IMG/VR virus record: IMGVR_UViG_2939521961_000011 | DNA from: a virus | Taxonomy: Duplodnaviria; Heunggongvirae; Uroviricota; Caudoviricetes | Strand: one strand, 5' to 3' | Length of the DNA stretch: 64,000 nucleotides | Shown here: in pieces, positions 60,770 through 60,991 of the stretch | Layout of the letters: the number at the start of each line of letters is the position of its first letter | Numbering within the stretch: position 1 is the first letter of the stretch | Program-made: the position numbers and the translations under genes | The notes under the pieces: model-generated | Seen by the model: the letters and a program-made list of their open reading frames with translations, nothing else | Database searches by the model: none | What the model was told of the DNA's origin: nothing

Positions 60770-60828
60770 GTGTGTAGTCTTGGCGGCATCAGTTTTTTCT
60801 TGAAGTTCGACTGATGTCCGCCCTTTTT
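60770..60828 (+). ncRNA. DicF-like small RNA variant
   Basis: Shares the DicF 5' segment TGGCGG-ATCAGTTTT and terminator CCGCCCTTTTT but has a different central sequence; downstream structured region conserved. Confidence 0.45.
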
Positions 60829-60991
60829 AAAGTGAATTTTGTGATGCGGTGAATGCGGCTAAGCGCACGCGGCACAGTTAAAAGTCATGTTAGTCCTTAT
60901 TGGTTTGGGTGGGAAAGCCGACTGTAATTGTTAACTGGTTGCAGTCACCTGGAGGCACCAGGCACCGCATCAACAAAGTTCATTTGTAAAA

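What the first reader, a model, noticed from the sequence alone, without database searches (positions are those of the whole stretch)
60770..60890. Diverged DicF-like RNA in prophage 2 with conserved downstream structure
Prophage 2 keeps the DicF 5' segment and terminator but has a different central sequence, while the downstream long-range inverted repeat is conserved with a compensatory G-U change (CACTGCATCA versus CACCGCATCA pairing with TGATGCGGTG). A DicF paralog with an altered pairing region could target different mRNAs. DicB is replaced here by unrelated small ORFs.
Basis: partly seen in the sequence, partly recalled or inferred. Interest (0 to 1): 0.45.

Follow-up and report, generated by a model that had tools for sequence, protein, structure and literature searches.

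The report
KilS small RNA of Rac prophage
The flagged stretch is an allele of the already described prophage small RNA KilS, which sits in front of the cell-division killer gene kilR. It shares its terminator and neighbourhood with DicF, but its target-recognition segment matches that of the host small RNA RprA, a match that recurs in many other phages.

Summary
The feature is real but not a new DicF paralog. Window 60732-60828 (+) is the ortholog (about 94% identical) of E. coli K-12 kilS (b4833). KilS is a 98-nt sRNA found through Hfq RIL-seq and confirmed by Northern blot, and it lies upstream of kilR in the Rac prophage. Rfam's DicF model scores the site at 42.8 bits, below the 48-bit threshold. 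Only the terminator stem and the 58 nt after it resemble DicF. The DicF 5' seed and the ftsZ-pairing loop are absent.

The downstream inverted repeat is the closing helix (about 22 bp) of a conserved multi-helix leader. The leader shows real covariation and is distantly related to Rfam STnc100. The "unrelated small ORFs" are kilR, a division inhibitor like dicB, and ydaE.

New here: KilS nt 20-53 matches RprA nt 47-80. The RNase E site mapped in K-12 KilS (nt 32) exposes a seed with 16 consecutive pairs to csgD mRNA site Ib. The same 14-mer precedes at least 23 different terminators in many phages, including lytic Erwinia phages. Regulation of csgD or dgcM by KilS is predicted, not shown.

The parts
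60431..60583 (+). DUF1391 (YdaF/YdfA-like) gene upstream, the same synteny as ydfA upstream of dicF.
   Evidence: Pfam PF07151, 93.6 bits; RefSeq annotation of the identical O26 locus.
60717..60725 (+). Putative extended -10 promoter element (TGtTAAATT) of KilS.
   Evidence: Read from the sequence. The region is identical to K-12, where a TSS is mapped at the equivalent of 60732 (Thomason 2015 via Bar 2021 Suppl. Table 6). No good -35 was found, and the consensus scan did not call it.
60732..60828 (+). KilS primary transcript (97 nt), ortholog of K-12 kilS b4833.
   Evidence: Alignment to NC_000913.3 1418405-1418502. About 94% identity. MFE -35.4 kcal/mol, z = -3.5.
60738..60754 (+). 5' landmark GTGCGCCTCCGGTTGTG, shared with the region about 200 nt upstream of the DicF terminator (14339-14355) and with many phage early-left RNAs.
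   Evidence: 16/17 identity, score 29 against shuffles of 15.2 +/- 2.3. The landmark recurs in phage loci.
60751..60784 (+). RprA-like segment (KilS nt 20-53, matching RprA nt 47-80).
   Evidence: Local alignment score 38 against shuffles of 14 +/- 2.2. BLAST E = 0.03 (window allele) and 0.002 (K-12 allele) in a search space the size of Rfam. The cmscan RprA alignment shows UGCUGUGUGUAGUCUU.
60763..60778 (+). Predicted seed CACUGCUGUGUGUAGU. Its first base is the 5' end expected after RNase E processing (K-12 KilS nt 32).
   Evidence: RNase E site at 1418471 (Clarke 2014 via Bar 2021 Suppl. Table 6). 16 consecutive Watson-Crick pairs with csgD mRNA -98..-83, dG -29.5 kcal/mol.
60769..60823 (+). 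Sub-threshold Rfam DicF match (42.8 bits, gathering score 48).
60782..60828 (+). DicF-type Rho-independent terminator (stem-loop 60782-60822, U-run 60824-60828).
   Evidence: alignment to DicF.
60829..60990 (+). Structured kilR leader. P1 closing helix is about 22 bp (60830-60851 with 60963-60985). Internal hairpins include CCUGG-AGGCA-CCAGG (60948-60962). It is a distant STnc100-like core.
   Evidence: MFE -62.5 kcal/mol, z = -4.3. RNAalifold on 28 loci gives 31 pairs, 11 with compensatory changes. STnc100 model scores 37.4 bits against a gathering score of 47. Alignment to true STnc100 copies.
61004..61225 (+). kilR (division and elongation inhibitor); Shine-Dalgarno GGAG at 60994-60997.
   Evidence: RefSeq 'killing protein KilR' at the identical O26 locus; 96% identical to K-12 KilR.
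61225..61395 (+). ydaE (zinc-binding small protein).
   Evidence: RefSeq annotation; weak Rtr1/RPAP2 Pfam match.
14482..14896 (+). Comparator in prophage 1: canonical DicF (14482-14533), homologous leader (14539-14707) and dicB (14708-14896).
   Evidence: DicF 75 bits. Leader scores 34.7 bits against STnc100. DicB Pfam PF05358, 125 bits.

Best explanation
The locus encodes KilS, the small RNA of Rac-type prophages.

Shown by homology to the K-12 gene and its published data: a roughly 97-nt RNA starts at 60732 from its own promoter and ends at a DicF-type intrinsic terminator at 60828. In K-12 it associates with Hfq, is seen on Northern blots, and has an internal RNase E site at nt 32.

Inferred:
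- RNase E processing releases a roughly 66-nt form whose 5' end is the seed CACUGCUGUGUGUAGUC. This seed, its position just 5' of the terminator, and the cleavage position all match processed RprA (which starts at RprA nt 60).
- KilS therefore acts in trans as a prophage-borne partial mimic of RprA. It pairs with yncL mRNA (the RIL-seq partner) and probably with the RprA sites in the csgD 5' UTR (site Ib) and in dgcM, but not with ftsZ or rpoS.
- In cis, the KilS terminator stops most transcription before the toxic kilR gene. Read-through RNA folds into the conserved leader. By analogy with the 72-nt RNase III form of DicF, the 22-bp closing helix of that leader is an RNase III site that separates the sRNA from the kilR mRNA.
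For: Identity as KilS:
- Alignment to annotated kilS b4833, with the same flanking genes.
- About 94% identity, and present in 1836 of 5426 complete E. coli genomes.
- Published Northern blot, Hfq RIL-seq and independent promoter. TSS at 1418502 and RNase E site at 1418471.

Relation to DicF:
- Shared terminator and downstream 58 nt and shared 5' landmark.
- Recombinant alleles in phage contigs carry the KilS seed with the DicF loop, or the DicF seed with other terminators.

Link to RprA:
- Alignment statistics.
- RprA nt 60-97 and 45-75 are the experimentally validated anti-csgD and anti-ydaM regions, and processed RprA is the last 47 nt.
- KilS has 16 Watson-Crick pairs to csgD -98..-83, more than RprA's 13. 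This csgD UTR segment is at least 99% conserved in 5317 of 5426 genomes.
- The same seed can pair with the yncL 5' UTR -38..-18.
- Processed KilS and processed RprA fold into the same two-hairpin shape.
- The 14-mer recurs before at least 23 different terminators in phages.

Leader:
- Covariation, fold z = -4.3, STnc100 similarity.
- The RNase III 72-nt DicF form is reported in PMC5069750.
Against: - No expression data exist for this window. Everything transcriptional is transferred from K-12.
- In K-12, KilS had few RIL-seq partners and low sRNA scores (0.03-0.15), and csgD was not among the partners. csgD is poorly expressed at 37 C (my own knowledge), so this is weak evidence against.
- The pairwise similarity between KilS and RprA is only moderately significant on its own (E 0.002-0.03 after correcting for all Rfam families; 0.018-0.22 for a genome-sized search space).
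- KilS covers only one (site Ib) of the three csgD sites that act redundantly for RprA, so repression may be weak.
- In the full-length MFE the seed is partly paired with the 5' domain, and no covariation supports or refutes that domain.
- Rare alleles carry seed substitutions (L060, L092, L041, L076).
- The placement of the RNase III site in P1 is inferred only from 72 - 53 = 19 nt.
Confidence: 0.7

Rival explanations
1. The element is mainly cis-acting. A terminator/attenuator plus a processing leader keeps the toxic kilR gene silent, and the short RNA is a by-product with no trans targets of consequence.
For: - The terminator lies directly between the promoters and kilR.
- The leader is conserved in front of several different downstream genes: kilR, dicB, a Rha/Ash protein and others.
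- KilS had very few RIL-seq interactions.
- kilR mRNA rises when NusG falls (PMC5793797). That paper describes NusG as stimulating Rho-dependent termination, and attributing the rise in kilR mRNA to that is my inference. Either way, termination control matters at this locus.
Against: - The seed is conserved while the terminators are exchanged, which a pure terminator function does not explain.
- Hfq chimeras with yncL and Hfq-related Northern data exist.
- The RNase E site sits exactly at the start of the seed.
- The homologous DicF acts in trans.
Confidence: 0.2
2. It is a functional DicF paralog that still represses ftsZ (a second division-inhibiting RNA next to KilR).
For: Same position, terminator stem and operon logic as dicF-dicB. 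Some natural chimeras (L060, L071, L089, L092, L100) combine the KilS 5' part with a DicF-like ACUCC loop.
Against: - In this allele the loop is UUUUUUCUUGAAGUUCGA, and the ACUCCGUG segment that pairs with the ftsZ RBS is absent.
- The DicF model scores it below threshold.
- Predicted KilS-ftsZ duplexes are no better than background. This crude duplex test has little power, because true DicF-ftsZ also did not stand out.
- ftsZ was not reported as a RIL-seq partner.
Confidence: 0.05
3. It is a decaying, non-functional remnant of dicF left in a defective Rac prophage.
For: The DicF covariance model scores it below the gathering threshold, and Rac is a cryptic prophage in K-12.
Against: - The promoter, seed, terminator and U-run are all intact.
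- It is present in 1836 of 5426 genomes, with only two main alleles.
- It is also carried by inducible or complete phages (vB_EcoS-683R6, Rac-SA53).
- The K-12 ortholog is expressed.
Confidence: 0.03

Closest known systems
KilS (E. coli K-12 b4833; Bar et al. 2021, PMC8175672)
   Same: Same gene. About 94% identity over 97-98 nt, identical promoter region, and the same position upstream of kilR-ydaE-racC-recE.
   Different: Six substitutions or indels, including seed position 34 (C here, U in K-12; both pair with the G in csgD). sieB, which separates ydaF and kilS in K-12, is absent here. The site is not annotated in the O26 RefSeq records.
DicF (Rfam RF00039; Qin prophage)
   Same: Terminator stem and U-run, the 58 nt that follow, the structured leader before a division-inhibitor gene, an upstream DUF1391 gene, and a 5' end made by RNase E.
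   Different: A different 5' seed and a different loop, so the xylR- and ftsZ-pairing residues are missing. It scores 42.8 bits against a threshold of 48. The primary transcript is about 97 nt, whereas the shared landmark lies about 200 nt before the terminator in the dicF locus.
RprA, especially its processed 47-nt form (Rfam RF00034)
   Same: The seed UGCUGUGUGUAGUC(UU) sits directly 5' of the terminator. The RNase E product starts at the equivalent position. The predicted two-hairpin shape is the same. Both are complementary to csgD site Ib and to the dgcM +3..+14 core.
   Different: KilS lacks the RprA 5' half (the rpoS- and csgD site II-pairing regions) and the RprA terminator. The RprA model scores it at only 24.5 bits against a gathering score of 70. 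KilS is prophage-encoded and not known to be Rcs-regulated.
STnc100 / PasD structured prophage sRNAs (Rfam RF02076; Zhu, Shabalina & Storz 2026 preprint)
   Same: The kilR and dicB leaders share the core GGUGAAU ... CACC(U/G)GGAGGCACC(A/C)GGCACC, with compensatory changes in P1 and in the hairpin.
   Different: Both leaders score below the gathering threshold (37.4 and 34.7 bits against 47). There is no terminal terminator, and the element is a 5' leader of an mRNA, not a free-standing sRNA. The PasA and PasD seeds are different.
Phage anti-sRNAs AgvB/AsxR (Rfam RF02702/RF02703)
   Same: Prophage-encoded Hfq-type RNAs that connect to a core-genome sRNA network. AgvB is present in this window at 49609-49670.
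   Different: From my own knowledge, those RNAs are complementary to core sRNAs and act as sponges for them. KilS has the same sense as RprA, which makes it a mimic and not a sponge.

Membership tests
KilS | Sequence orthology to K-12 kilS (b4833) over its full length. | tested here: met
   Alignment A2; 93.8% identity class.
KilS | Location in the intergenic region immediately upstream of kilR in a Rac-type early-left operon. | tested here: met
KilS | Own promoter and TSS, about 98-nt transcript, Hfq association. | not testable with these tools
   The promoter region is identical to K-12. Expression is known only for K-12.
DicF (RF00039) | Covariance-model score at or above the gathering threshold (48 bits). 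| tested here: not met
   42.8 bits, against 75 bits for the true copy.
DicF (RF00039) | 5' single-stranded seed UUUCUGGUGA (xylR pairing). | tested here: not met
   About 5 of 14 positions match. The function of this region is from PMC5069750.
DicF (RF00039) | 3' region and loop complementary to the ftsZ RBS (ACUCC...). | tested here: not met
   The loop is replaced by UUUUUUCUUGAAGUUCGA.
DicF (RF00039) | GGCGG/CCGCC terminator with U-run, and synteny (DUF1391 gene upstream, structured leader and division inhibitor downstream). | tested here: met
RprA (RF00034) | Covariance-model score at or above the gathering threshold (70 bits), with three hairpins including the 5' hairpin. | tested here: not met
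   24.5 bits, E = 3.4.
RprA (RF00034) | Conserved 3' seed UUGCUGUGUGUAGUC adjacent to the terminator. | tested here: met
STnc100 (RF02076), for the leader | Covariance-model score at or above the gathering threshold (47 bits). | tested here: not met
   37.4 bits and 34.7 bits for the dicB leader.
STnc100 (RF02076), for the leader | Core helices (P1 closing helix and the GGAGGCACC hairpin) kept with covariation. | tested here: met
STnc100 (RF02076), for the leader | Terminal Rho-independent terminator that makes it a discrete sRNA. | tested here: not met
   The leader runs straight into the kilR Shine-Dalgarno sequence and ATG.

The most novel reading that the evidence does not exclude
KilS is one member of a large, mosaic and so far unnamed family of phage RNAs that carry the seed of processed RprA (often with an RprA-like terminator as well). 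These modules sit in the early-left operons of many temperate enterobacterial phages, and they also occur in lytic N4-like Erwinia phages.

Two readings follow. Either phages use the module to take over part of the RprA regulon (csgD and dgcM, hence curli and biofilm) without the rpoS-activating arm, or the 3' half of the core sRNA RprA itself descends from such a phage module.

I found no mention of this link in the searchable literature. No Rfam family captured eight representative loci at the gathering threshold.
Probability: 0.4. Interest if true: 0.75.

Novelty: already known. Interest (0 to 1): 0.45.

Why it matters
As flagged, the finding resolves to a known but barely studied sRNA, so the locus itself is not a discovery. 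Three things are useful beyond that.

1. KilS has no Rfam family, and RefSeq leaves it unannotated outside MG1655. About a third of complete E. coli genomes, including O26/O103-type STEC, therefore carry an unlabelled Hfq sRNA next to a toxic gene.

2. The analysis gives KilS a concrete, testable mechanism: an RNase E-exposed, RprA-identical seed with perfect 16-bp complementarity to the validated RprA site in csgD mRNA. This would link a prophage to curli and biofilm control.

3. DicF, KilS, STnc100-like leaders and RprA-like modules appear to be shuffled parts of one phage RNA toolkit (5' landmark, structured core, seed, terminator). That is a tractable system for studying how sRNA seeds are exchanged between phages and the host core genome.

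Tried and rejected
- Duplex predictions with full-length RNAs were uninformative. RNAduplex ignores intramolecular structure, and even the true DicF-ftsZ pair did not stand out. I therefore rely on contiguous complementarity and on published pairing maps.
- RNAalifold on 17 KilS alleles gave no covariation, because the alleles are too similar and their terminators are not alignable. The 5' domain structure and seed accessibility in full-length KilS remain open.
- The consensus promoter/terminator scan did not call the KilS promoter or terminator, because the loop exceeds 8 nt and there is no -35.
- No second site complementary to the seed exists in the window, so an in-window (phage) target is rejected.
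- PasA and PasD were checked as possible names for the RprA-seed RNAs and rejected, because their seeds differ.
- Faubladier & Bouche 1994, which from memory first reported dicF-like sequences in Rac, could not be read. That prior-art statement is unverified.
- The O26:H11 11368 genome matches the window around KilS, but its annotation is not collinear with the Rfam features of the first roughly 45 kb of the window. The exact source strain was not determined.

Full report
**What is at the coordinates.**
Rfam at gathering thresholds finds one DicF in the window (14482-14533, 75 bits) and nothing at 60770-60890. A permissive scan of 60300-61300 finds three relevant matches:
- a sub-threshold DicF match at 60769-60823 (42.8 bits, threshold 48);
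- a sub-threshold STnc100 match over the following 187 nt (37.4 bits, threshold 47);
- a weak RprA alignment whose only solid block is UGCUGUGUGUAGUCUU.

Aligning the two prophage loci gives three results:
- The 5' arm of the terminator stem matches at 14/15 positions. The 3' arm, the U-run and the next 58 nt (57/58 identical) are shared.
- The single-stranded 5' seed differs (about 5 of 14 positions match).
- The loop differs.

**Identity.**
The 651-nt region is 100% identical to many O26/O103-type STEC chromosomes, where the downstream genes are annotated kilR and ydaE. It is 94-98% identical to Rac-like phages. In E. coli K-12 MG1655 the homologous spot carries the annotated ncRNA kilS (b4833, 1418405-1418502, minus strand) between sieB and kilR. 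The alignment places the window ortholog at 60732-60828 with six differences.

KilS was predicted from Hfq RIL-seq data and confirmed by Northern blot by Bar et al. 2021 (PMC8175672):
- It is described as a 5'-UTR-derived sRNA that can be transcribed from its own promoter, with yncL as partner.
- Their Supplementary Table 6 lists a TSS at 1418502 and one internal RNase E site at 1418471, which is KilS nt 32.
- That paper mentions neither DicF nor RprA.

A 96-nt query covering the RNA matches 1836 of 5426 complete E. coli genomes and is annotated in none of the listed RefSeq records. An exact KilS-specific 20-mer occurs in representatives of E. coli, E. ruysiae, Shigella flexneri and Citrobacter braakii. 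KilR here is 96% identical to K-12 KilR. The upstream gene is a DUF1391 protein, as upstream of dicF.

**Relation to DicF.**
KilS and DicF occupy the same slot: DUF1391 gene, then sRNA, then structured leader, then division inhibitor. A scan of viral contigs with a conserved leader motif returned about 120 loci. Upstream of the same leader are found:
- DicF;
- KilS;
- the KilS seed with a DicF-like ACUCC loop (L060, L071, L089, L092, L100);
- the KilS seed with other terminators (L013, L041, L080);
- the DicF seed with a short terminator (L023, L025, L073, L079);
- several other seeds.

Downstream are dicB, kilR or a Rha/Ash-type protein, mostly but not strictly matched to the sRNA type. The 17-nt landmark GTGCGC(C/T)TCCGGTTGTG at KilS nt 7-23 recurs about 200 nt before the end of the DicF terminator (14339-14355). 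KilS therefore looks like the long dicF-region transcript with its middle replaced. DicF's pairing regions, the 5' end for xylR and the 3' region for ftsZ and pykA (PMC5069750), are both absent from KilS.

**The downstream structure.**
The leader folds with z = -4.3. Its closing helix P1 is about 22 bp (60830-60851 with 60963-60985). RNAalifold on 28 diverse loci predicts 31 pairs, 11 of which carry two-sided compensatory changes. One example is the hairpin CCUGG-AGGCA-CCAGG against CCGGG-AGGCA-CCCGG.

Both leaders resemble Rfam STnc100 below threshold, and they align with the two true STnc100 copies in the window with compensations in P1. The same core also precedes other small ORFs without any sRNA terminator.

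PMC5069750, citing Faubladier 1990, reports a 72-nt DicF made by RNase III, against 53 nt by termination. Nineteen nucleotides past the terminator falls inside the 5' strand of P1. I infer that P1 is that RNase III site and that the same applies to KilS-kilR read-through RNA. This step is inference.

**The RprA connection.**
- *Similarity.* KilS nt 20-53 aligns with RprA nt 47-80 (score 38-40; shuffles 14 +/- 2.2). BLAST E-values are 0.03 (window allele) and 0.002 (K-12 allele) for a search space the size of all Rfam families. They are 0.22 and 0.018 for a genome-sized space. The pairwise case is therefore moderate, not overwhelming.
- *Context.* RprA nt 60-97 and 45-75 are the validated anti-csgD (site I) and anti-ydaM regions. 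The tested mutation lies in GCUG (PMC3465796). Processed RprA is the last 47 nt and starts at AUUGCUG. The RNase E site in K-12 KilS gives a product starting CAUUGCUG.
- *csgD pairing.* From exactly that nucleotide, the window allele has 16 consecutive Watson-Crick pairs with csgD -98..-83 (dG -29.5). The K-12 allele has 16 pairs including wobbles (-27.2), and RprA has 13 Watson-Crick pairs (-24.6). That UTR segment is at least 99% conserved in 5317 of 5426 genomes.
- *yncL pairing.* The seed can also pair with the yncL 5' UTR, which is consistent with the RIL-seq partner.
- *Shape.* Processed KilS and processed RprA have the same predicted two-hairpin shape.
- *Limits.* KilS lacks the rpoS-pairing core AACGAAUU and the anti-site II.

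**A wider family.**
Some hits inside coding sequences look random. In contrast, 75 of 107 unique contexts place the 14-mer directly before a hairpin plus T-run, and these fall into at least 23 terminator clusters.
- *Landmark-anchored scan.* In a sample anchored on the 5' landmark and not on the seed, 27 of 100 unique loci have the exact 14-mer. Five more have one mismatch and 14 have two. The chance expectation is at most 0.0013 per locus.
- *BLAST with RprA.* BLAST of RprA against the 3.3 Mb of fetched phage DNA gives matches that cover RprA nt 59/60-105, which is the processed form including the terminator. Identity is 85-92% and E-values reach 9e-13.
- *Curated phage genomes.* The module occurs in temperate E. 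coli phages downstream of the repressor, and in lytic N4-like Erwinia phages right after thymidylate synthase.
- *Existing names.* Eight representative loci hit no Rfam family at the gathering threshold for this RNA. The PasA and PasD seeds are different. The text searches found no paper linking RprA to a phage RNA.

**Mechanism and confidence.**
I am nearly certain the feature is KilS. I consider it likely (about 0.7 overall) that it works as an RNase E-processed, Hfq-dependent trans-acting sRNA whose terminator and leader also gate kilR. Regulation of csgD and dgcM specifically is a prediction (about 0.4-0.5). The rivals are less well supported, for the reasons given in their entries: a purely cis-acting attenuator, a still ftsZ-directed DicF paralog, and a dead remnant.

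**Prior art not verified.**
From memory, Faubladier & Bouche 1994 (J Bacteriol 176:1150) already reported dicF-like sequences in Rac. The paper is not held. Also from memory, Rho-dependent termination silences kilR (Cardinale et al. 2008). PMC5793797 shows that kilR mRNA rises after an OxyS-induced fall in nusG mRNA stability.

Noticed in passing
Loci L141, L156, L186, L146, L162, L168, L172, L208 and others (viral contigs); L348:700-746 (Erwinia phage Ea9-2); L349:1501-1546 (Escherichia phage vB_EcoM-606R2): The RprA/KilS 14-mer seed TGCTGTGTGTAGTC sits directly 5' of at least 23 different terminator hairpins in many phage contigs. Some copies match RprA nt 59-105 (seed plus terminator) at 85-92% identity. 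The module is also present in lytic N4-like Erwinia phages, just after thymidylate synthase.
   Followed up: partly
L060, L071, L089, L092, L100 (KilS seed + DicF-like loop); L013, L041, L080; L023, L025, L073, L079; L038, L067, L106, L112, L114, L120, L122: The sRNA slot upstream of the conserved leader is highly mosaic. Seeds and terminator loops are recombined in many combinations. The downstream gene (dicB, kilR or a Rha/Ash protein) is only loosely linked to the sRNA type.
   Followed up: partly
L005, L014, L039, L051, L058, L068, L069, L081, L084, L118: The STnc100-like leader core (UGCGGUGAAUGCGGCUAAGCG ... CACCGGGAGGCACCCGGCACCGCA) also occurs without a preceding sRNA terminator, in front of other small ORFs (MFGKLFGKK..., MLGILKKKF..., MQNNPNKCRTLW...). 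It behaves like a portable 5' leader module of unknown function.
   Followed up: no
L156, L172, L286, L257 (viral contigs), about 150-200 nt after the landmark GTGCGCTTCCAGTTGTG: In many temperate phages the order is landmark, STnc100-like core, RprA-like seed, terminator, placed just downstream of a CI-like repressor gene on the same strand (the first element of the early-left operon, with no N gene). The sequence after the terminator (ACACAACTGAAAGCGCG) is complementary to the landmark, so the whole RNA is bracketed by a long-range helix.
   Followed up: no
window 14486-14494 and 14650-14658: The DicF 5' seed GGTGACGTT is perfectly complementary to AACGTCACC inside the dicB leader (9 nt). 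This may be chance: the leader sequence is the same in loci with other seeds.
   Followed up: no
window 49609-49670 (+) and 49671-49860 (-); window 744-913 (-): AgvB and a full-length STnc100 are convergent and abut base to base. In the matching O26 genome they lie between the Q antiterminator region and a SASA-family esterase gene. A second STnc100 copy at 744-913 lacks the terminal terminator hairpin.
   Followed up: no
window 7829-8003 (-), 53896-54070 (-), 8712-8896 (-), 3553-3799 (-): Two sok antitoxin RNAs (hok/sok loci), a C4 antisense RNA next to isrK (P1/P7-type immunity), and three prophage tRNA genes.
   Followed up: no
window 59619-60144 (+) and 60584-60731: A RelB / RelE-ParE toxin-antitoxin pair sits between the repressor region and the DUF1391 gene. 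sieB, which separates ydaF and kilS in K-12 Rac, is absent here (149 nt in place of about 650 nt).
   Followed up: no
L255, L341, L249 (viral contigs): A complete tRNA-like gene is embedded right after the landmark, followed by a seed variant GCTGTGTGGAGTC and a GGCGGTACCAG terminator.
   Followed up: no
Bar et al. 2021, Supplementary Table 3: The published KilS Northern probe 2 (AGGACTACACACAGCAATGTCGTTATTTAC) contains about 16 nt complementary to RprA, so it could cross-hybridise. Probe 1 targets the KilS-specific terminator loop.
   Followed up: no
window 1-45000 compared with NC_013361.1 2514852-2560000 (L130/L131): The window is identical to O26:H11 11368 around KilS. However, the annotation of the preceding about 45 kb of that genome (yobD ... 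pphA, then a prophage) does not fit the Rfam features of the window (tRNAs, sok, DicF). The window therefore comes from another strain or from another copy of the prophage.
   Followed up: no
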